A stretch of DNA of 64,000 nt, from NCBI GenBank assembly GCA_964365185.1, contig CAYIOP010000001.1, positions 112,673 to 176,672 of the forward strand, read 5' to 3'. Shown here piece after piece: positions 7,985 through 62,814 of this stretch. The notes beneath the pieces were generated by a model, which was given only the letters and a program-made list of their open reading frames with translations, was not told the origin of the DNA and did no database searches. Position 1 is the stretch's first letter. Every line of letters begins with the position of its first letter. A program made the translations under genes and the position numbers. Source of the DNA: an uncultured Candidatus Saccharibacteria bacterium. GTDB taxonomy: Bacteria; Patescibacteriota; Minisyncoccia; UBA6257; 2-01-FULL-56-20.

Positions 7985-8011
7985 AAGTATATTATAGCAT
8001 TAAATATAGGC

Positions 8012-9115
8012 TTATACACTTTCTAATTTTTCTATTCTAACGCCGATCAGGCGGATTTTTTTCTTGCTGGGATTTTCACGCTGGTCAAAAAATGGTAACA
8101 ATAATTTTAGAACCTCAAATTCTAGATTTTCCTTTGAGTGAATCGGCTCTTTTAAGGTGTGGTTTTTGGATTTAGTGATAAAACCCGAGAAGCGAACTGT
8201 GATAACAATGGTCTTAAATGAATCGAATCTAGATTCTTGAAATCGATTAAAAACCGATTCGATGAGTTGTTTCATTCTTTGAGTAATAAATTGCGCGTCA
8301 AGTGTGTCTTTGGAAAAAGTTTCTTGTTCGCCGATGGATTTGATTTCCTCAAATTCCCCAACCGGCGAGTCGTCCTTGCCTCTGATTTTTTGGTATAGCA
8401 CCATCCCCCATTTACCTAAAATTCGTTTCATTTCAGGTTCCGAGAACTTTTGGAGGTCTCGAACTTTAGCAACACCAAGTTTATTTAAAATCGTTTCGGT
8501 CTTGGGGCCAATGCCGGGAATTTTCCGAATAGTTAAATTTTCCAAAAATTTTTCTACTTTCTGCTGGCAGATTTTTTCATCATCATCGCCGATTATGGTT
8601 AAACCATCGGGTTTTTGCGCATCCGAGGCGATTTTAGCGATGAGTTTATTGGGACCAATACCAATGGAGCAGGTTAGATTTTCCTGGCTTTTGATTTTAG
8701 TTTTGATTTTTTGACAGAGAATTTCGGCTTTTTTAAATTCATTTAAAAAACTTAAATCAAAGTAAGCTTCATCGATGCTGGCTTCTTCAACAGCAGAAAC
8801 AAAATTTTTAACAATGGCAATTATTTCTCGCGAGACCTCAGTGTAGTTTTTATGATTCCCCCCGATAAAAACCGCTGCCGGCAATTTTTTGTCTTTAGCT
8901 TCCTGTGATAATTGCCAGGCCCGGCTGATGGACATAGCGGAGTGGATGCCATAGGCGCGGGCGGCATAATTCGCGGTTGAAACCACTCCCCGACCGTGAC
9001 CAGCCACCGGGTCAGCGCCGACCACAATTGGCAGGCCCTTAAGCCGAGGTCGGTCTCGCTCCTCAATCGCCGCAAAAAAAGCATCCATATCAAGATGGGC
9101 AATAATTCTATTCAT
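8012..9115 (-). CDS. dinB: DNA polymerase IV
   Basis: MNRIIAHLDMDAFFAAIEERDRPRLKGLPIVVG, Y-family palm motifs. Confidence 0.9.
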   Translation of the reverse strand: MNRIIAHLDMDAFFAAIEERDRPRLKGLPIVVGADPVAGHGRGVVSTANYAARAYGIHSAMSISRAWQLSQEAKDKKLPAAVFIGGNHKNYTEVSREIIAIVKNFVSAVEEASIDEAYFDLSFLNEFKKAEILCQKIKTKIKSQENLTCSIGIGPNKLIAKIASDAQKPDGLTIIGDDDEKICQQKVEKFLENLTIRKIPGIGPKTETILNKLGVAKVRDLQKFSEPEMKRILGKWGMVLYQKIRGKDDSPVGEFEEIKSIGEQETFSKDTLDAQFITQRMKQLIESVFNRFQESRFDSFKTIVITVRFSGFITKSKNHTLKEPIHSKENLEFEVLKLLLPFFDQRENPSKKKIRLIGVRIEKLESV

Positions 9116-24585: not shown

Positions 24586-24672
24586 AGAATTAGGATTTAG
24601 AATACAGAATTTAGAATTAAGGGCTAAACGGCACGACGTTAAAATAAATGATAATCAGAAACCAAAGGGAAG

Positions 24673-28723: not shown

Positions 28724-28902
28724 TATTAGAAGTAAGAATTTAGGATTGAGGATTGAGGATAAAGAATTAAGAGAAATTCGAGTCTAGAAAATAGAAACAA
28801 AAAAAATAATATCTAATTAAGTATACACTGTAAACGAGAGCGGGTATAAACAAAAACCCCTCGACCAAATGGCGGAGGGGTTTTTGACTTATAAATTTTG
28901 GT

Positions 28903-36162: not shown

Positions 36163-36202
36163 TGGCTAATTATAACCATAAATTGCCCTTTCTTGCAAAA
36201 AA

Positions 36203-36229
36203 AACCACCCTATTAAGGGTGGTTTTTTA
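36203..36229. terminator. Bidirectional intrinsic terminator
   Basis: An A-run, CCACCCtattaaGGGTGG, then a T6 run. Confidence 0.7.
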
Positions 36230-36242
36230 GAATTATCTTTTT

Positions 36243-36326
36243 CTCTTAGCCGTCTTTCTCTTTTTAGTAGTTTTTTTCTTGGCGGTCTTTTTTACTGCTT
36301 TTTTTCTTTTTTTCATTTTAGGTTCG
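36243..36326 (-). CDS. Possible tiny highly basic peptide (27 aa; MKKRKKAVKKTAKKKTTKKRKTAKRKR)
   Basis: Short ORF between two terminators upstream of hpf. Composition resembles small ribosome-associated basic proteins. No SD, and no homology could be checked. Confidence 0.2.
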
Positions 36327-36527
36327 ATCTGGTAAATCAATCGACCTTTGCTAGTAAGTTTAAATACAAAACTTACCAATTGAGTTTTCACTCTCTTACG
36401 AGTGATGACGCAAAAAATTTTACGTCCTCAATTACAAAAATTAATTTTAATTTATCTTATATTTATTTTAACACTTGAGTGGAGAAATAAAACGAAAACT
36501 GTGGACAACTTTTCGCTCGCTTTTATT

Positions 36528-36650
36528 TTGTGAGAACCGAGGTTATTTGATCTCCAGCGGATCAAATCCCTCTGCACCTCGGCGCGGAAATCCCGCTAAC
36601 GCGGGAACCAATCTTTCCGCGCCTCCGGTAGCTTCTCACAAAACAAAAAC
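36528..36650. ncRNA. Candidate structured RNA element (three-way junction with mutually exclusive pairings). Strand undetermined
   Basis: Outer stem UUUUGUGAGAA/UUCUCACAAAA. Hairpin A: CCGAGG...CCUCGG, with an inner UUUGAUC/GAUCAAA stem. Hairpin B: CGCGGAAA...UUUCCGCG, with an inner CCCGC-uaa-GCGGG stem. A 3' CCUCCGG could pair with the 5' CCGAGG instead of hairpin A's partner. Confidence 0.35.
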
Positions 36651-36671
36651 TCGCTTGTGGGTGGAATAAAA

Positions 36672-36715
36672 AAATAGCCAGTAACTCATTAAATAAGAAA
36701 CTGGCTATAGGTAAT
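36672..36715 (-). terminator. Minus-strand intrinsic terminator
   Basis: On the minus strand, ATAGCCAG-loop-CTGGCTAT followed by TTTTTTTATT. Confidence 0.6.
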
Positions 36716-36982
36716 GACTACTGCCGAGAATTCGGCGTTTCCACTCACGGGACCCACCCGCTACACAACTCATAGGAACGGGTGCCCGTTCCGTGTCGGG
36801 GCATTTTCCGAGATTCTCTTTAAATGGCGGTTATTTGATCTTATTGAAACTTTCAAAAAGACGAGACTCCCCACCAGATTAACTCATGCGAGTCAGTCTC
36901 GGCATACCCTAAAACAGTAGTCCCTGAATAAGAGCGAGATGTTTCATCTCTGCCTCCTTGGCTAAATTAATAATAACACAAC

Positions 36983-40911: not shown

Positions 40912-40926
40912 GTTTTTAATTTAGTT

Positions 40927-41685
40927 TTAAGGGAATTGATTAGATATTTTAATTATTTTCTGAAACTCTTGTAAATTTAAACTAGCGCCACCGACCAAAA
41001 CGCCGTCTATCTCGTTGTGTTGAATAATACGGCCGACATTTAAAGATGTTACCGAACCGCCGTAGAGTATTTTAGGTTTTAGGTTATAGGTTATAGGTTT
41101 TAGAAATTCTCGAATGAAGTTGACCATTTCGAGGATAAAGGAGGGGGTTTCTTTAAGCGAGCGGTCGCGGCTGGTGCTGATGGCCCAGATGGGTTCGTAG
41201 GCGATGAGAATGTTAGATGATCGAAATGTTCGAATGTTCGAAATGTTTTTTAGATTATTCTTTATCTGGGAGGCGACGAATTTTTTGGCCACGGGGACGC
41301 CTTTCTTGCGAACGATGGCTGGCTCACCCACACACAAAATTACCTTAAGCCCGGCGCGAAGCGCGTCTTTAATCTTTTGGCTCACAATTTCATCGGTGTC
41401 GCCCAAAGCGCGCCGTTCGGAATGACCAATAATAACATAACTGACGCCTAATCTTTTGAGCATCACGGCTGAAACCTCGCCGGTAAATGGACCGGCAATT
41501 ACTTCTTCTCTAGAAACATCTTGGCTGCCAAGCTTGGCTTTTTTCAAAATGCGACTGACTCGATTTAAAAATACAAACGGTGGGCAGACCACCACGTTTT
41601 TTTTATCGGAAATTTTGGCCAGCTTGAGAGCGCCGGATTCACTGGTAGGGTGCATCTTCCAATTAGCAATTATTATTTTAGCCAT
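40927..41685 (-). CDS. tpiA: Triosephosphate isomerase
   Basis: ANWKMHPT, IIGHSERR, AYEPIWAI, and a GG(A/S)V-type C-terminal motif. The coding sequence contains TTAGGTT-type short tandem repeats. Confidence 0.9.
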   Translation of the reverse strand: MAKIIIANWKMHPTSESGALKLAKISDKKNVVVCPPFVFLNRVSRILKKAKLGSQDVSREEVIAGPFTGEVSAVMLKRLGVSYVIIGHSERRALGDTDEIVSQKIKDALRAGLKVILCVGEPAIVRKKGVPVAKKFVASQIKNNLKNISNIRTFRSSNILIAYEPIWAISTSRDRSLKETPSFILEMVNFIREFLKPITYNLKPKILYGGSVTSLNVGRIIQHNEIDGVLVGGASLNLQEFQKIIKISNQFP

Positions 41686-42181: not shown

Positions 42182-42448
42182 ATGAATTGTTTTCTCTATG
42201 TATTAAAGAATAAAAATAAAAACTGGCATTATATTGGAGTTACCTCTAACCTAAAGAAGAGGTTGGAATATCACAATCGCGGTAAAGTTAAATCAACTCG
42301 ACCTTATGTTCCACTTACGCTTGTATATTCAGAAAAATTTAATAATAATAGTGAAGCCCGCAAGCGAGAAAATTTTCTAAAAAGGACAGCTCGAGCAAGA
42401 GAAGATTTATTCGAAAAAATAGATTTGGCCCTATCGTCTAATGGCTAG
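42182..42448 (+). CDS. GIY-YIG nuclease family protein (YhbQ/UPF0213-like, 88 aa)
   Basis: FLYVLKNKNKNWHYIGVTSNLKKRLEYHNRGKV...RPYVPLTLVYSEKFNNNSEARKRENFLKR is a GIY...YIG...R...E...N motif. The longest ORF starts at 42128 inside the tRNA-fragment copy, so the internal Met at 42182 is preferred. The stop codon lies inside the intact tRNA. Confidence 0.7.
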   Translation: MNCFLYVLKNKNKNWHYIGVTSNLKKRLEYHNRGKVKSTRPYVPLTLVYSEKFNNNSEARKRENFLKRTARAREDLFEKIDLALSSNG

Positions 42449-59960: not shown

Positions 59961-60758
59961 CTAAAAACTTTTTAGAAAATCATTAAGTAAAAGCGAGCTT
60001 AGGGCGATTTGATTATTGGATAGATTCCTAACTGTTTGATATAAATTTTTAGCTTTTCTAGCAGCTTTATTCGCTGAAAGCCAGACTACTCCATCAATCA
60101 CGGCTATTCTGATGGTTTTTTTATCTTTCTTCTTAATAAAATTTATTGTCTCTCTAAAACTTTTATCTTGAGTTCCTCCACTGGTGGAAATAAATTTTGC
60201 TTCTCCGATTACAAATTTATCTCCCACTTTAAATACTAAATCTAAGCCCTTTGGTCCTTTGTATCCTAATTTTTTATGAGCAAATTCTTTAAGAGCTTTG
60301 TCTCCTCCGGCTAAAATTGCTACTTGACTTTTGGTGGTTAAAAAATTATCTGGTTTTAATATTGGATAATTTAATTTATATAACCACTTTTGAAACATTT
60401 GCCCCATCTGGCGAGACGACGATGAAGGACGCAGAGATCCATCGATAATTCCCTCAAGCCCTGTTCTGAAAAGACGCTCGCTAATTCTTTTCGTTGTTGC
60501 AGGATTTTTGTCTAAAGCTTTAGGATCTTTCCTTATAAACCCAACATAAGGATCATCAAATGGAAAACGTTCTAATTCAAGTAGGGTTAAAATAAGTTCT
60601 TTTTTATTTTTGTTTTTGAATGCGACTTCTATGTCCTTCCTCTTTTTTTGATTAATCTCTCGTCCTACTCCAATATTGACTGGATAGACATTACTTAATT
60701 TATCTAAGTATCCGTTCGAGTTAGCTAACTCAATACTTTTCTTTATCCAGGTATTCAT
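59961..60758 (-). CDS. Putative type II restriction endonuclease (PD-(D/E)xK fold)
   Basis: PD-D/ExK-like core GLDLVFKVGDKFVIGEAKF. The start was chosen at Met (MNTWIKK) at 60758, which gives an ATGA overlap with the methyltransferase stop. The longest ORF extends to 60857. Confidence 0.5.
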   Translation of the reverse strand: MNTWIKKSIELANSNGYLDKLSNVYPVNIGVGREINQKKRKDIEVAFKNKNKKELILTLLELERFPFDDPYVGFIRKDPKALDKNPATTKRISERLFRTGLEGIIDGSLRPSSSSRQMGQMFQKWLYKLNYPILKPDNFLTTKSQVAILAGGDKALKEFAHKKLGYKGPKGLDLVFKVGDKFVIGEAKFISTSGGTQDKSFRETINFIKKKDKKTIRIAVIDGVVWLSANKAARKAKNLYQTVRNLSNNQIALSSLLLNDFLKSF

Positions 60759-60759
60759 A

Positions 60760-61953
60760 TCACGAAAACAATACTCCTGTTTTTCTAGATTCGATAGGTA
60801 ATTGACCGAGAATCTTAGTGAAGTAAAGATAATTAATAAATTTATAAGTAAAATCAAACGATATTCTTTTTCTATCTTTGTCGCGGTAATTAGTTAAGAA
60901 GAGCGAAAATTGATCGTTTCTAAGTTGATTTATTTCTTTATTGAATAAATCAATTATTTTCTCTTGTATGTTTATGCTTAATTTATTCGAGTCGGAAATT
61001 AAATAAATCATATGCCTTGAGGTTGGTTTACTGATAAGGCATTTAACTCCGTGTTTTCTTATATCTTCTAAAGCAATTTTTCCATTTTCGCTACCACTAT
61101 CAATAGCTTTAAGAAACATAATATTAGAATTTATAATTTTTTTGAGAGAACTAGATACCTTAACTTCCTTTTTATTTTTAATGTGATTATAGGCGGCCTG
61201 AATTTTATATTGACCCGATTGAATATCACTTTCCACTAATCTTCTTATTTTTAGATGATTATCAACTATATTAATCGGATTTATTATTCTTCCGCCAATT
61301 GTCCAATGAAATTTTTTTTCAAGAAAGATTTTTGTTGAATTTTTTTCCGGGAAAAAATTAGTTTCTACTTCTTGATTTTCTGGATTATCACTCTTTCTAA
61401 TTGATCGATAATAAAAAGTTATAACATTAGAAGTGGTATCCGGGAAAACTTGCTGTTTAAAATAATTGATCTTAACTATCCTAAATTTTTCAAAGAATAA
61501 ATTTCGAATTTTACGAGAATTTTCGGCTGATAGAAAATTTATTGGAATTACTACGATTCCCTCCTTACTGTTAAGAATTGAATTTAAAGAAATCTGGTAC
61601 AAATCCTCAAACCCGCTACTTTTAAAATATTTTTCTTTAGTTTCTTTATCGGCTTTATTGATATTTAAATAGGGTGGATTTGTTACTATAAAATCATATT
61701 TTCTTTTCTCTTTTAAGCTGTCGCCATAAAAAATTATGCGATTATCGACTAAATTTTTATCAATCTCAAACCCTGCTACTGTTTTAGCGCCATTATTCCT
61801 TGCCCAAGATAAAAGATCTCCTGAGCCAGCGAATGGATCGGATATATTTTTATTAACCACAAATTTCTCTAGTCCTTGTAATACATAGTTTGAATTAACT
61901 GTAAAAAACTGACCTAATTGTTTTTTAAATTGTACGGTTGTTTCTGCTTGCAT
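60760..61953 (-). CDS. N6-adenine-specific DNA methyltransferase (FxGxG before NPPY; gamma-class-like)
   Basis: LGQFFT, motif I DPFAGSGDLL, motif IV TNPPY, and a long C-terminal target-recognition region. Confidence 0.8.
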   Translation of the reverse strand: MQAETTVQFKKQLGQFFTVNSNYVLQGLEKFVVNKNISDPFAGSGDLLSWARNNGAKTVAGFEIDKNLVDNRIIFYGDSLKEKRKYDFIVTNPPYLNINKADKETKEKYFKSSGFEDLYQISLNSILNSKEGIVVIPINFLSAENSRKIRNLFFEKFRIVKINYFKQQVFPDTTSNVITFYYRSIRKSDNPENQEVETNFFPEKNSTKIFLEKKFHWTIGGRIINPINIVDNHLKIRRLVESDIQSGQYKIQAAYNHIKNKKEVKVSSSLKKIINSNIMFLKAIDSGSENGKIALEDIRKHGVKCLISKPTSRHMIYLISDSNKLSINIQEKIIDLFNKEINQLRNDQFSLFLTNYRDKDRKRISFDFTYKFINYLYFTKILGQLPIESRKTGVLFS

Positions 61954-61969: not shown

Positions 61970-62608
61970 TTACTTTATTGACTTCCAGGAACCGTTTTTG
62001 AGAACCGAGATGACTTTTCCTTTTAGTTCCATTTTGTCAGTAAATAGAATAATTTTATGCTTTGGGTTTTCGGGCTTTAAGTAGACGTAAGGCGGCTTAT
62101 CGTCCGAGATAAATCTTTTTATAGTGGAACCATCCTCGATACTTGCTAATACAATATCACCGGAAACAAATTCTTTTTGAGATTTTACTAAAACCGCATC
62201 GCCGTCGTCGATGCCGGCGTTAATCATTGAGTCGCCAGAAACTTTTAAAACAAAAACTTCGTCTTTTAGAAAAGACACATCGGATGTTGATGTGGTTTCC
62301 CATTCTCCGGAAATTTCTACCATTTCAAGTGGGGTGCCAGCTTTAGTGATTCCTAAGTTAGATATGAGCGGAGAAAATCCTAAAGTTTTAAATCCAGCAA
62401 AAGTGATTTTTAAACTTCGAGCAAATGAATCTCTATTTATTAATCCCGTTTGCTCAAGTTTTTTTAGGAGATCTAGAACAGATTGATTAGAGGAAACACC
62501 CAAATACCCTCTCATTTCTTCTAGGGTTGGCGAATATCCATTATCTCGTGTGTGTTCGTAAATTAGTTGGAGTAGTTCTTTTTGACGGTCCGTTATAAGG
62601 CCTTCCAT
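61970..62608 (-). CDS. lexA: LexA repressor (wHTH + S24 peptidase)
   Basis: N-terminus LITDRQKELLQLIYEHTRDNGYSPTLEEMRGYLGVSSNQSVLDLLKKLEQTGLI (LexA wing-helix). Cleavage-site-like KAG, catalytic Ser in VSGDSM, and Lys in TIKRF. Confidence 0.85.
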   Translation of the reverse strand: MEGLITDRQKELLQLIYEHTRDNGYSPTLEEMRGYLGVSSNQSVLDLLKKLEQTGLINRDSFARSLKITFAGFKTLGFSPLISNLGITKAGTPLEMVEISGEWETTSTSDVSFLKDEVFVLKVSGDSMINAGIDDGDAVLVKSQKEFVSGDIVLASIEDGSTIKRFISDDKPPYVYLKPENPKHKIILFTDKMELKGKVISVLKNGSWKSIK

Positions 62609-62614
62609 AATTAA

Positions 62615-62642
62615 ATTATAAACTGACCTTTTGGTCAGTCAA
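62615..62642 (-). promoter_or_regulatory. lexA promoter with an embedded palindromic operator ACTGACC-TTTT-GGTCAGT
   Basis: On the minus strand: TTGACT (62642-62637), a 16-nt spacer containing the palindrome (62622-62639), TATAAT (62620-62615), then ATG 6 nt later (leaderless). This is the classic autoregulatory layout. Confidence 0.6.
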
Positions 62643-62814
62643 TGTGGATAACTTTTTGAATATGCCCTTTAGGCGGGTTCGTTCAACTGGCTGGGGGGTG
62701 GAAGTAAAAAAAGCCCTGAATTTTTGGGAAAGACAGGACTCGTTGAGTCAAATTTAGAAAAAAATAAGGGGTTGCTTGTGGCAACCCCTTTTTGTTTCCT
62801 TTCTAATCTCGCGA

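What the first reader, a model, noticed from the sequence alone, without database searches (positions are those of the whole stretch)
36163..36982. An 800-bp non-coding island between hpf and murB packed with hairpins, a possible riboswitch-like three-way junction, an 11-codon leader ORF with attenuator, and a 27-aa poly-Lys ORF
In an otherwise compact genome this gap holds five separate things. (i) A bidirectional terminator at 36203-36229. (ii) A 27-aa ORF MKKRKKAVKKTAKKKTTKKRKTAKRKR on the minus strand at 36243-36326. (iii) A roughly 120-nt element at 36528-36650 with an outer 11-bp stem and two inner hairpins, whose 5' CCGAGG can pair with either CCUCGG or CCUCCGG; that is classic alternative-structure switch logic. 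(iv) A minus-strand terminator at 36672-36715. (v) Downstream of murB on the minus strand, a strong SD plus the 11-codon ORF MKHLALIQGLLF followed by a GAGACT...AGTCTC T-rich hairpin (attenuator-like), and a perfect GGAACGGG-N2-CCCGTTCC palindrome. The location next to hpf hints at stress or translation-linked regulation.
Basis: seen in the sequence. Interest (0 to 1): 0.55.

Follow-up and report, generated by a model that had tools for sequence, protein, structure and literature searches.

The report
Mosaic gap with novel three-way-junction repeat
The gap between murB and hpf is a patchwork of independent parts, two of which are new leads: a copy of an undescribed, widely conserved three-stem DNA/RNA element found in many uncultured "CPR" bacteria, and a tiny, extremely basic protein gene always paired with the ribosome-hibernation gene hpf.

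Summary
The features exist, but they do not form a single hpf switch. All local genes are on the minus strand.

Reading murB to hpf:
- A weak hairpin after murB.
- A roughly 205-nt structured segment (36716-36922) with no homolog anywhere, ending in a strong terminator.
- A three-way junction (3WJ, 36510-36665). It belongs to a family absent from Rfam 15. I recovered 29 distinct copies. 43 of 50 base pairs show compensatory changes, and 96% of cells are paired against 35-45% in slid controls. Copies lie in unrelated intergenic contexts, in either orientation, sometimes twice per contig. No RT or transposase gene is nearby and no promoter of their own is detectable. This does not fit a riboswitch.
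- A conserved promoter with a DnaA-box-like TTATCCACAG element and an extended -10.
Versions of 12-58 aa occur in 11 lineages. Substitutions are mainly at third codon positions. It has its own terminator.
- A promoter giving an apparently leaderless hpf mRNA.

The "SD + 11-codon leader/attenuator" and the CCGAGG alternative pairing are not supported. The functions of the 3WJ family and the peptide remain inferred.

The parts
36936..36950 (-). Short hairpin GAGAUG-AAA-CAUCUC 33 nt after the murB stop, with a weak U-rich tail. It is probably a weak murB terminator. It contains the ATG of the 12-codon ORF.
   Evidence: Terminator-like site in the scan; sequence.
36908..36959 (-). AAGGAGG (36953-36959) plus a 12-codon ORF MKHLALIQGLLF (36908-36946). 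Probably fortuitous and not a leader peptide.
   Evidence: Only 6 of 47 genes in the window have any SD-like motif. The ORF has no counterpart in L183, L207, L001 or L092.
36716..36922 (-). 'RNA X': a roughly 205-nt multi-branched structured segment closed by GACTACTG/CAGTAGTC. It is specific to this lineage and its function is unknown. It contains the GGAACGGG-TG-CCCGTTCC palindrome (36775-36792) and the GAGACT/AGTCTC hairpin.
   Evidence: Fold z-scores are -3.7 (-) and -4.5 (+). No Rfam match. No DNA homolog in 213 loci other than the same population. The 68-aa plus-strand ORF has no credible homolog among 1.84 billion representatives.
36665..36708 (-). Strong intrinsic terminator. The stem is AUAGCCAGU/ACUGGCUAU (36700-36708 / 36674-36682), followed by U7-8 (36665-36673).
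   Evidence: Sequence; forms in the MFE and centroid folds; coordinates.
36510..36665 (-). Three-way-junction element, a member of a new family. It has a long AU-rich closing helix P1, P2 with a conserved GCUUGGU bulge, and P3 with a CCGCUGGA loop. The conserved core is GAGAAGCUAUCGGAG / CGAGAUGCAGGCG / ACGCCGGUUCUC. The flanks are AAGCGAG (5') and GCGAGCGA (3').
   Evidence: Covariance-model hits of 180 and 158 bits. Covariation shown. Orthologous copies in L097/L183/L088 and in L207/L208.
36499..36508 (-). DnaA-box-like promoter-upstream box TTGTCCACAG. It reads TTATCCACAG in most relatives.
   Evidence: Conserved upstream of the mini-ORF promoter in L097, L183, L096, L092, L001, L209, L210, and as variants in L207 and L212. 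The same box abuts the -35 of the lexA promoter in this window.
36465..36473 (-). Extended -10 element TGTTAAAAT of the mini-ORF promoter. The inferred transcription start is near 36458.
   Evidence: TGnTAAAAT or TGnTATAAT is conserved in position in at least 8 lineages. The start site is inferred, not measured.
36317..36458 (-). 5' leader of the mini-ORF mRNA, with hairpins and the conserved motif AAAGGUCGA (36341-36349).
   Evidence: (A)AAGGTCG(A) is present 30-80 nt before the ATG in every lineage examined.
36233..36316 (-). Microgene encoding the 27-aa polybasic peptide MKKRKKAVKKTAKKKTTKKRKTAKRKR.
   Evidence: Homologous basic ORFs of 12-58 aa sit at the same place in 11 lineages. Against L183: 12 identical codons, 7 synonymous changes (all at third positions), 1 non-synonymous change in the shared core, and one in-frame 3-nt indel.
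36197..36228 (-). Intrinsic terminator of the mini-ORF transcript. The CCACCC/GGGUGG stem has A- and U-tracts on either side, so its form is bidirectional.
   Evidence: Sequence. Rfam sub-threshold hits are only to the terminator portions of other families. Position is conserved in relatives while the sequence differs.
36169..36198 (-). hpf promoter: -35 TTGCAA, an 18-nt spacer, and -10 TATAAT ending 6 nt before the hpf ATG (36162). This implies a leaderless hpf mRNA.
   Evidence: Promoter scan gives 10 of 12 matches. TATAAT is invariant in the alignment of relatives. The leaderless status is inferred from spacing.

Best explanation
The 820-bp gap is a mosaic of independent modules on the minus strand. 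It is not one regulatory device.

(1) The conserved ancestral content of the murB-hpf spacer is a small transcription unit. It consists of a promoter (TTATCCACAG box plus extended -10), a leader of about 130 nt, a microgene for a 12-58-aa polycationic peptide, and a terminator. Immediately after it comes a separate promoter that probably gives a leaderless hpf mRNA. I infer that the peptide is translated. I also infer that it works with the short, single-domain HPF of these bacteria as a ribosome- or nucleic-acid-binding polycation, in the role RMF plays for short HPF in gammaproteobacteria.

(2) Upstream of that promoter sits one copy of a previously undescribed family of roughly 150-nt three-way-junction elements. 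The family is scattered at a few copies per genome through the intergenic regions of Paceibacteria-like CPR bacteria, in either orientation. I infer that it is a host-maintained, orientation-independent extragenic element in the manner of REP/BIME, ERIC or bcr1 repeats. On this view it is carried passively in neighbouring transcripts, or acts as extruded DNA. Its invariant junction-proximal helices and purine-rich internal loops would be the docking site of a specific protein. Its long AU-rich closing helix would make it a discrete, very stable unit and a possible RNase III or processing boundary. It does not sense a ligand for hpf.

(3) Between murB and that element is a variable slot. In this lineage the slot holds an orphan structured 205-nt segment ending in a strong terminator. 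In relatives it holds a membrane-protein gene, a retron-type reverse transcriptase, or nothing.

Shown: the structures, their conservation, distribution and contexts, and the coding-type substitution pattern. Inferred: transcription starts, translation of the peptide, and every functional role.
For: Mosaic and synteny:
- SIMPL-murB-gap-hpf-secA is conserved.
- Nhmmer finds only window 36185-36673 conserved with relatives.

Microgene:
- It is present in 11 lineages, with hpf identity running from 100% down to 35%.
- Substitutions against L183 are third-position biased and there is an in-frame indel.
- GC-richer lineages keep the K/R/T/A composition using different codons.
- Its own promoter and terminator are conserved in position.
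- HPF has only the PF02482 domain and is 107-118 aa long.

3WJ family:
- There is no Rfam 15 match on the window or on 8 member loci.
- With two sequences, 19 of 50 pairs were already compensatory.
- With 28 sequences, 96.4% of cells are paired, 43 of 50 pairs have double changes, 0 of 500 shuffles reach the observed value, and slid controls give 35-45% pairing.
- 37 covariance-model hits of 56-159 bits came from one metagenome pattern scan.
- Orthologous copies at the hpf locus occur in three lineages.
- Two copies per contig occur in L102/L194, L197 and Ga0209515_10000205.
- Neighbours are assorted housekeeping genes with no RT or transposase.
- Both orientations occur within co-directional gene arrays. 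Examples are clpP-[rev]-tyrS-[fwd] in L102, a copy just after a tRNA on either strand (L115, L157), and a copy between 23S and 5S rRNA antisense to the model (L142).
- No promoter-like signal appears at a consistent distance on either side. Mean score is 6.6 of 12 on both sides.
- G.U pairs are rare: 32 of 1346 cells, against 17 A.C.

Variable slot.
Against: - No expression data exist. Promoters, transcript ends and translation are all inferred.
- The 3WJ has strongly conserved unpaired purine-rich loops (GGA/GA and GCGAG/GAGC). There is also a 2:1 excess of G.U over A.C on the model strand, whatever the direction of the neighbours. Both point to one functional strand. That fits a dedicated RNA better than a fully orientation-independent element.
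- Copy number is low, about one per 50-200 kb of sequence searched. Copies within a contig are only 58-74% identical. This differs from typical REP or MITE families.
- The peptide's length varies fivefold (12-58 aa). That is unusual for a structural ribosome ligand and would also fit a regulatory upstream ORF.
- No sequence similarity to RMF, bS22, bL37, THX or any Pfam, NCBIfam or PDB entry was found.
Confidence: 0.55

Rival explanations
1. The 3WJ is a gene family for a trans-acting small structured RNA, either an RNP scaffold or a ribozyme. It would be made from the model strand (minus in the window) and trimmed back to its paired 5'/3' ends. The paralogues would differ in P2.
For: - Sequence is near-invariant at the junction and in the internal loops, while the stems covary freely.
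- Tandem-purine internal loops make sense only on one strand.
- G.U exceeds A.C by 32 to 17 overall. The excess is similar in loci whose neighbours run with the model (13 to 4) and against it (11 to 5).
- Orthologous copies are retained with compensatory change at three loci.
- P2 and P3 'types' are shared across genomes.
Against: - No promoter-like signal at a consistent distance and no terminator.
- Some copies start within 10 nt of a tRNA 3' end or a stop codon.
- One copy lies antisense inside a 23S-5S spacer.
- The G.U fraction is only 2.4%.
- The model strand lies on the C-rich strand of its flanks in 16 of 21 loci, so it is mostly antisense to neighbouring genes.
Confidence: 0.2
2. The 3WJ is, or descends from, a non-autonomous mobile DNA element. 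It could be a MITE, or a hairpin-recognised single-strand transposon end. Its fold would be kept because a transposase or nuclease recognises it in DNA.
For: - It is multi-copy, extragenic and found in either orientation.
- At the hpf locus it is present in 3 of 11 lineages and absent in the rest. 'Empty' sites read GCGAG|TGAG-TTATCCACAG.
- Short purine direct repeats flank P1 and co-vary between loci: GCGAG...GCGAG, CGGAG...CGGAG, GAAG...GAAG.
- Covariation is almost purely Watson-Crick.
- P2/P3 modules are combined in mosaic fashion.
- Three contigs of one lineage break inside the element.
- The neighbouring slot is an insertion hot spot, holding a retron RT in L092-L095.
Against: - No transposase, integrase or HUH gene was found near any of roughly 25 loci.
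- The outer inverted repeats (P1) are the least conserved part in sequence, the opposite of transposon ends.
- Copies within a genome are as divergent as copies between genomes.
- There are no hits in 2.9 million viral contigs.
- Copies persist at orthologous loci across deep divergence.
Confidence: 0.15
3. One reading: the 3WJ is a riboswitch-like cis-regulator, and the upstream SD plus short ORF is an attenuator. Together they would control hpf or translation-stress genes.
For: In the window and two related lineages the 3WJ lies on the same strand as the mini-ORF and hpf, and upstream of them. A weak, separate structured hit lies upstream of hpf in an Azambacteria genome (L012, E about 1e-3).
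Against: - A conserved promoter lies between the 3WJ and the mini-ORF, and a terminator plus another promoter lie before hpf.
- About 25 other loci carry the element with unrelated neighbours and in both orientations.
- No conserved alternative pairing exists.
- No gene follows the proposed attenuator, only the 3WJ.
- The short-ORF segment is not conserved in any relative.
Confidence: 0.03
4. The poly-Lys ORF is a regulatory upstream ORF rather than a functional peptide. Ribosome progress through the Lys/Arg codons would set how often the adjacent terminator forms, and so tune read-through into hpf.
For: - The stop codon lies 5-30 nt before the terminator stem in all lineages.
- Peptide length is very variable (12-58 aa) while composition is constant.
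- Runs of AAA codons are known to slow or slip bacterial ribosomes. This comes from my own knowledge and was not tested here.
Against: - hpf has its own well-conserved promoter after the terminator.
- GC-richer lineages replace AAA with AAG, AGA or CGN.
- The core KKA-KKTAKKKTTKKRK is conserved at the amino-acid level through 7 synonymous changes.
Confidence: 0.15

Closest known systems
Structured extragenic repeats (REP/BIME and ERIC/IRU of enterobacteria, bcr1 of the Bacillus cereus group, Correia elements of Neisseria)
   Same: All are multi-copy and confined to intergenic DNA, in either orientation relative to flanking genes. They often abut stop codons or promoters. Their palindromic folds are maintained by compensatory changes, and they are carried in neighbours' transcripts.
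   Different: - This element is a three-way junction with an invariant junction core, not a simple or imperfect hairpin.
- Only a few copies occur per genome, and those are highly divergent.
- The outer inverted repeat is variable in sequence.
- No clear target-site duplication and no cognate RAYT or transposase were seen.
- It is conserved at orthologous loci across deep divergence.

The comparison rests on my knowledge of those families. None is in Rfam as a match.
raiA motif RNA (Rfam; a large ncRNA often found upstream of raiA/hpf in Firmicutes and Actinobacteria; PMC10861870)
   Same: Both are structured non-coding elements upstream of a raiA/hpf-family gene. In both cases the link to that gene is positional rather than regulatory.
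   Different: No covariance-model match even at E<=10. The 3WJ is smaller (about 150 nt), has a different architecture, and sits mostly at loci unrelated to hpf.
Retron msr-msd ncRNA
   Same: Both have a long terminal a1/a2-like helix enclosing two hairpins, with an AGC just after the 5' strand of that helix. A retron-type RT occupies the same murB-hpf gap in relatives L092-L095.
   Different: There is no RT in the 64-kb window or beside any family member. L092 has no 3WJ.
RMF (ribosome modulation factor) and tiny basic ribosomal proteins (bS22, bL37, bTHX, eL41)
   Same: The mini-ORF product is very small and very basic. It is encoded next to a short, single-domain HPF, which is the kind of HPF that needs RMF in E. 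coli.
   Different: No sequence similarity to any Pfam, NCBIfam or PDB entry. Length varies from 12 to 58 aa. Composition is low-complexity K/R/T/A. Ribosome binding is untested.
DnaA box (TTWTNCACA)
   Same: Relatives carry perfect TTATCCACA at the mini-ORF promoter. The same 9-mer abuts the -35 of lexA in this window and occurs three times after the 3WJ in L104.
   Different: The window copy has one mismatch (TTGTCCACA). There is no cluster, no AT-rich unwinding element and no GC-skew switch here. Binding by DnaA is not shown.

Membership tests
Riboswitch / cis-regulatory leader RNA | Fixed position and orientation in the 5' UTR of the genes it controls | tested here: not met
   Family members lie 5' or 3' of unrelated genes on either strand, after tRNAs and within an rRNA spacer. 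In the window a promoter separates the element from the mini-ORF.
Riboswitch / cis-regulatory leader RNA | Conserved expression platform, meaning mutually exclusive pairings involving a terminator or a ribosome-binding site | tested here: not met
One fold explains 96% of cells. No U-tract follows P1 on either strand.
Any Rfam 15 family (including raiA, HEARO, twister-sister, hammerhead, 6S, SRP, tmRNA) | Covariance-model score at or near the gathering threshold | tested here: not met
   In the window only tRNA-Glu at 42427 passes. Nothing overlaps the 3WJ at E<=10. Nothing overlaps 8 other members at E<=5.
Retron | Reverse transcriptase gene adjacent to the ncRNA | tested here: not met
   Tblastn with the L095 RT finds nothing in the window. 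No RVT_1 domain appears among 30 neighbouring proteins.
Structured extragenic repeat (REP/ERIC/MITE-like) | Several copies per genome, extragenic, in both orientations | tested here: met
   Two copies per contig occur in three cases. Both orientations occur within one gene array (L102). All copies are intergenic. Only one copy is present in this 64-kb window.
Structured extragenic repeat (REP/ERIC/MITE-like) | Conserved terminal inverted repeats with target-site duplications, or a cognate transposase/RAYT | tested here: inconclusive
   The terminal helix varies in sequence. Short purine direct repeats flank it, but they could instead be part of an internal loop. No transposase lies nearby. Whole genomes were not available.
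Intrinsic terminator | G+C-rich hairpin immediately followed by a U-tract | tested here: met
   Met for 36197-36228 and for 36665-36708. Not met for the 3WJ, which is followed by an A-rich tract on both strands.
Leader-peptide attenuator | Short ORF with regulatory codons, overlapping alternative hairpins, and a regulated gene downstream | tested here: not met
   The 12-codon ORF at 36908-36946 has no codon run and its ATG is inside a hairpin. No gene follows its terminator. SD use is rare in this genome (6 of 47). The segment is absent from relatives.
Protein-coding microgene | Substitution pattern and indels that respect the reading frame across lineages | tested here: met
   Against L183 there are 7 synonymous third-position changes, 1 non-synonymous change in the core, and an in-frame indel. 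An ATG, an open frame and a stop before the terminator are present in 11 lineages with different codon usage.
RMF / small basic ribosomal proteins | Sequence or profile similarity | tested here: not met
   No Pfam, NCBIfam or PDB match. The peptides are absent from a collection of 15 billion proteins.
RMF / small basic ribosomal proteins | Binding to ribosomes | not testable with these tools
   Needs proteomics or cryo-EM of CPR ribosomes.

The most novel reading that the evidence does not exclude
The three-way-junction family is a new class of functional RNA restricted to CPR/Patescibacteria. It could be a protein-bound scaffold or a catalytic RNA with an invariant junction core, present as a few diverged paralogues per genome. 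Separately, the polybasic microprotein is a previously unseen partner of short HPF, either an RMF analogue or a new tiny ribosomal protein, in these reduced-genome bacteria.
Probability: 0.25. Interest if true: 0.85.

Novelty: new variant of a known kind. Interest (0 to 1): 0.7.

Why it matters
CPR/Patescibacteria make up a large share of bacterial diversity, yet almost nothing is known about their non-coding elements or how they regulate translation.

The 3WJ has covariation support equal to that of established RNA families, and it is missing from Rfam 15. It is a ready-made candidate for biochemical work: finding its binding partner, testing for cleavage, and testing its effect on flanking transcripts.

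A microgene invisible to all gene callers is conserved beside hpf across a whole clade. This suggests that ribosome hibernation in these organisms involves a component nobody has annotated.

The analysis also points to practical features of these genomes: leaderless or SD-less initiation, a recurrent TTATCCACAG promoter box shared with lexA, and a murB-hpf insertion hot spot.

Tried and rejected
- **Rfam.** I searched the whole window, the gap at E<=10, relatives and 8 member loci. There were no hits other than tRNA/rRNA and terminator look-alikes.
- **SecA-anchored loci.** These came from 80 GTDB species. Identity was at most 58%, and no DNA similarity to the gap was found. R2 was run over 57 of those loci plus close relatives and found only a weak hit in L012.
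- **murB homologues.** The nearest is 62% identical, so they were of no use for RNA X.
- **RT remnant hypothesis.** No RT-like sequence lies in the window. The L092 gap shares only the promoter-to-ORF part with the window.
- **Replication origin hypothesis for the DnaA-like box.** There is no box cluster above chance (6 observed against 6.3 expected) and no skew switch.
- **RNA X as a decayed copy of the L183 115-aa gene.** No similarity.
- **RNA X as a 68-aa plus-strand gene.** No credible homologue.
- **Dedicated promoter for the 3WJ on either strand.** Not found.
- **Phage association.** Four pattern hits in viral contigs were all rejected by the model.
- **Literature searches** for a CPR structured RNA of this kind found nothing.
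- **Strand assignment from G.U against A.C pairs.** Only weakly informative.
Full report
**Setting.** The window comes from a groundwater Patescibacteria (Paceibacteria-like) genome. Identical hpf and murB proteins occur on Hainich aquifer contigs. The best SecA matches among GTDB species are Paceibacterota MAGs at 58% identity or less. All genes around the finding are on the minus strand:
- murB, 37906 to 36983
- the 820-bp gap
- hpf, 36162 to 35827
- secA, 35830 to 33239

The synteny SIMPL-murB-gap-hpf-secA holds in every relative recovered.

**Checking the observation.** The 27-aa ORF lies at 36233-36316, not 36243-36326. The short ORF near murB has 12 codons.
- The hairpin at 36205-36222 with flanking A and T runs is a textbook terminator.
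- The hairpin at 36674-36708 with its U-tract is also a textbook terminator.
- The 3WJ folds far better than shuffled controls on both strands, with z of -7.9 and -8.1.
- The murB-proximal 205 nt also folds well, with z of -3.7 and -4.5.

Rfam 15 recognises nothing in the gap. Only the terminator portions of unrelated families match, below threshold.

**What is conserved.** Close relatives are scarce. The nearest hpf is 72% identical and the nearest murB 62%. Fetching contigs for hpf homologues showed that only window 36185-36673 is alignable with relatives. That stretch contains four things.

1. *A basic mini-ORF just upstream of hpf.* It is found in 11 lineages with lengths of 12 to 58 aa. 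Examples are MPKKKKGGKKRR, MKKKKATKKTAKKKTTKKRKK, MAKKKAAKKKTTKKKKATKKKRV, and a 58-aa K/R/T-rich version.
   - Against the L183 lineage, the window ORF has 12 identical codons and 7 synonymous third-position changes.
   - It has one non-synonymous change in the shared core and one in-frame codon indel.
   - GC-richer lineages keep the composition using AAG, AGA or CGN codons.
   - This is the signature of a translated gene. No gene caller or database holds it, and it matches no family or solved structure.
2. *A promoter for that ORF.* It has a TTATCCACAG box (TTGTCCACAG in the window, 36499-36508) and an extended -10 (TGTTAAAAT, 36465-36473). Both are conserved in position in at least 8 lineages. 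An invariant AAAGGUCGA motif lies in the leader.
3. *A terminator after the ORF.* Its sequence differs in each lineage.
4. *The hpf promoter.* Its TATAAT ends 6 nt before the hpf ATG, so hpf is probably leaderless. This fits the genome. Only 6 of 47 genes have any SD-like motif, and many have a -10-like hexamer just before the ATG.

HPF here is the short single-domain type, with PF02482 only and 107-118 aa.

**The three-way junction.** The window and L097 alone gave 19 compensatory pairs out of 50. A covariance model found truncated copies at contig ends in the L088 lineage.

One metagenome scan with a pattern taken from the conserved junction and loop returned 105 stretches. The models confirm 37 of them at 56-159 bits. 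None of four viral pattern hits is real.

In an alignment of 28 distinct copies:
- 96.4% of cells pair.
- 43 of 50 pairs show changes on both sides.
- No shuffle out of 500 reaches the observed value.
- Sliding the partners by 1-3 columns drops pairing to 35-45%.

The consensus is a long AU-rich P1 enclosing P2 and P3:
- GAGAAGCUAUCGGAG
- P2a, the bulge GCUUGGU, the P2b hairpin, then the return strand of P2a
- CGAGAUGCAGGCG
- P3 with its CCGCUGGA loop
- ACGCCGGUUCUC
- purine-rich flanks, AAGCGAG on the 5' side and GAGCGAC on the 3' side

The fold is therefore real and the family is new to Rfam. My literature searches found no description of it.

**Why it is not an hpf switch.**
- Apart from the three related lineages that carry it at the hpf locus (window, L097/L183/L088, L207/L208), members lie beside a wide range of genes. 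These include iPGM/rny, mraZ-rsmH, rplJ, tuf, clpP, tyrS, ftsZ, ftsH, an ECF sigma factor, dnaJ, a class A PBP, ruvC, alaS, polX, murA and a TraG-like gene.
- Members also lie directly after tRNA genes on either strand (L115, L157). One lies antisense between 23S and 5S rRNA (L142).
- In L102 the array reads clpP-[element, reverse]-tyrS-[element, forward].
- Eight other lineages have the hpf locus without the element.
- The alternative pairing that suggested a switch uses stem nucleotides that differ in other members.
- No RT or transposase is nearby.
- No sigma-70-like promoter sits at a consistent distance on either side.
- No U-tract follows the element on either strand.

**What the element might be.**
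- *Pair types.* Pairs are almost purely Watson-Crick. G.U accounts for 32 and A.C for 17 of 1346 cells. The modest G.U excess on the model strand is the same whether neighbours run with it or against it.
- *Copies on one contig.* These are usually only 58-62% identical. In one case two copies share a 65-nt identical 3' half but have unrelated P2 domains. P2 and P3 variants recur in different combinations across loci.
- *Strand.* The model strand lies on the C-rich strand of its flanks in 16 of 21 loci with at least 3 kb of flank. This is uncorrected, orthologues are included, and I did not follow it up.
- *3' flank.* In three independent loci the 3' flank is followed within 2-6 nt by TTATCCACAG. 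In several others it is followed directly by a TTGACA-type -35.

Taken together, I favour a host-maintained, orientation-tolerant extragenic element with a protein-recognised core, in the manner of REP/BIME, ERIC or bcr1. The two serious rivals are a dedicated small RNA and a relic of a mobile element. None of these roles is shown.

**The murB-proximal part.** The slot between murB and the 3WJ is variable.
- The window has the orphan 205-nt structured segment plus terminator.
- L183 has a 115-aa membrane-protein gene.
- L092-L095 have a retron-type RT (PADLOC RT_VI/II-A, E about 1e-20) plus about 1 kb of non-coding DNA.
- L207 and L001 have essentially nothing.

The window segment has no homologue in any fetched locus. 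It is unrelated to the L183 gene. Its 68-aa plus-strand ORF has no credible relative.

The 'strong SD + short ORF + attenuator' reading has three weaknesses. It depends on an SD in a genome that does not use SDs. The ATG is buried in a hairpin. The terminator has no gene behind it. I treat this segment as lineage-specific filler or an orphan 3'-UTR/sRNA of unknown role.

**Verdict.**
- Two leads are worth pursuing. One is a new, strongly supported structured-element family in CPR bacteria. The other is an unannotated polybasic microgene conserved beside short hpf.
- Function is inferred for both. Expression data and complete-genome surveys would settle the main alternatives.

Noticed in passing
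L092:2737-3648 (also L093-L095), the murB-hpf gap of a relative: A 261-303-aa retron-type reverse transcriptase sits on the opposite strand in the same gap. Its best PADLOC hits are RT_VI/RT_II-A at about 1e-20. It is followed by about 1 kb of non-coding DNA and a 53-aa ORF. The gap is therefore an insertion hot spot.
   Followed up: partly
window 62608-62660 (upstream of lexA, 61970-62608, minus strand): The lexA promoter reads TTATCCACA-TTGACT-GACCAAAAGGTCAGTT-TATAAT-6 nt-ATG. It has the same DnaA-box-like 9-mer as the mini-ORF promoter. A perfect GACC-N4-GGTC palindrome lies between -35 and -10 and is a candidate SOS box. The AAAGGTC half recurs in the mini-ORF leader.
   Followed up: partly
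whole window (e.g. 40912-40927, 7985-8000, 62609-62625): Only 6 of 47 genes of at least 150 aa have an SD-like motif. Many have a TATAAT-like hexamer 6-8 nt before the ATG, which suggests widespread leaderless initiation.
   Followed up: partly
window 24586-24625 and 28724-28763; also L102 and L104 upstream regions: A repeated motif like TTCTAAAT(T/C)CT sits directly upstream of several start codons in this and related genomes. Its function is unknown.
   Followed up: no
L104:8399-8450 and 8560-8615: Three perfect TTATCCACA boxes follow the 3WJ, which lies divergent from mraZ. Another box (TTATTCACAGG) precedes a tRNA gene promoter. The box may be a general promoter element in these lineages.
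   Followed up: partly
L102:6698-8322 (same arrangement in L194): tyrS is flanked by two inverted, diverged copies of the 3WJ element, 58% identical to each other.
   Followed up: partly
L142:462-1244: A version of the element lacking P1 lies between the 23S 3' end and 5S rRNA, on the opposite strand. It sits next to another conserved hairpin (GGATCCCGT...ACGGGATCC), which is also seen in L124/L184.
   Followed up: no
L012:351-523 and 1018-1125: In an Azambacteria genome, hpf is bracketed by two other long-stemmed structured elements, each with a closing helix of about 25 bp. The first is a weak hit to the 3WJ model (E about 1e-3) but looks like a different structure.
   Followed up: no
window 59961-61953: A low-GC (0.30) restriction-modification pair, a Tsp45I-like endonuclease and an Eco57I-type methylase, lies next to lexA.
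   Followed up: no
flanks of 29 3WJ loci: The model strand of the element lies on the C-rich strand of its flanking DNA in 16 of 21 loci with at least 3 kb of flank. This could be an orientation bias relative to replication or to gene direction.
   Followed up: no
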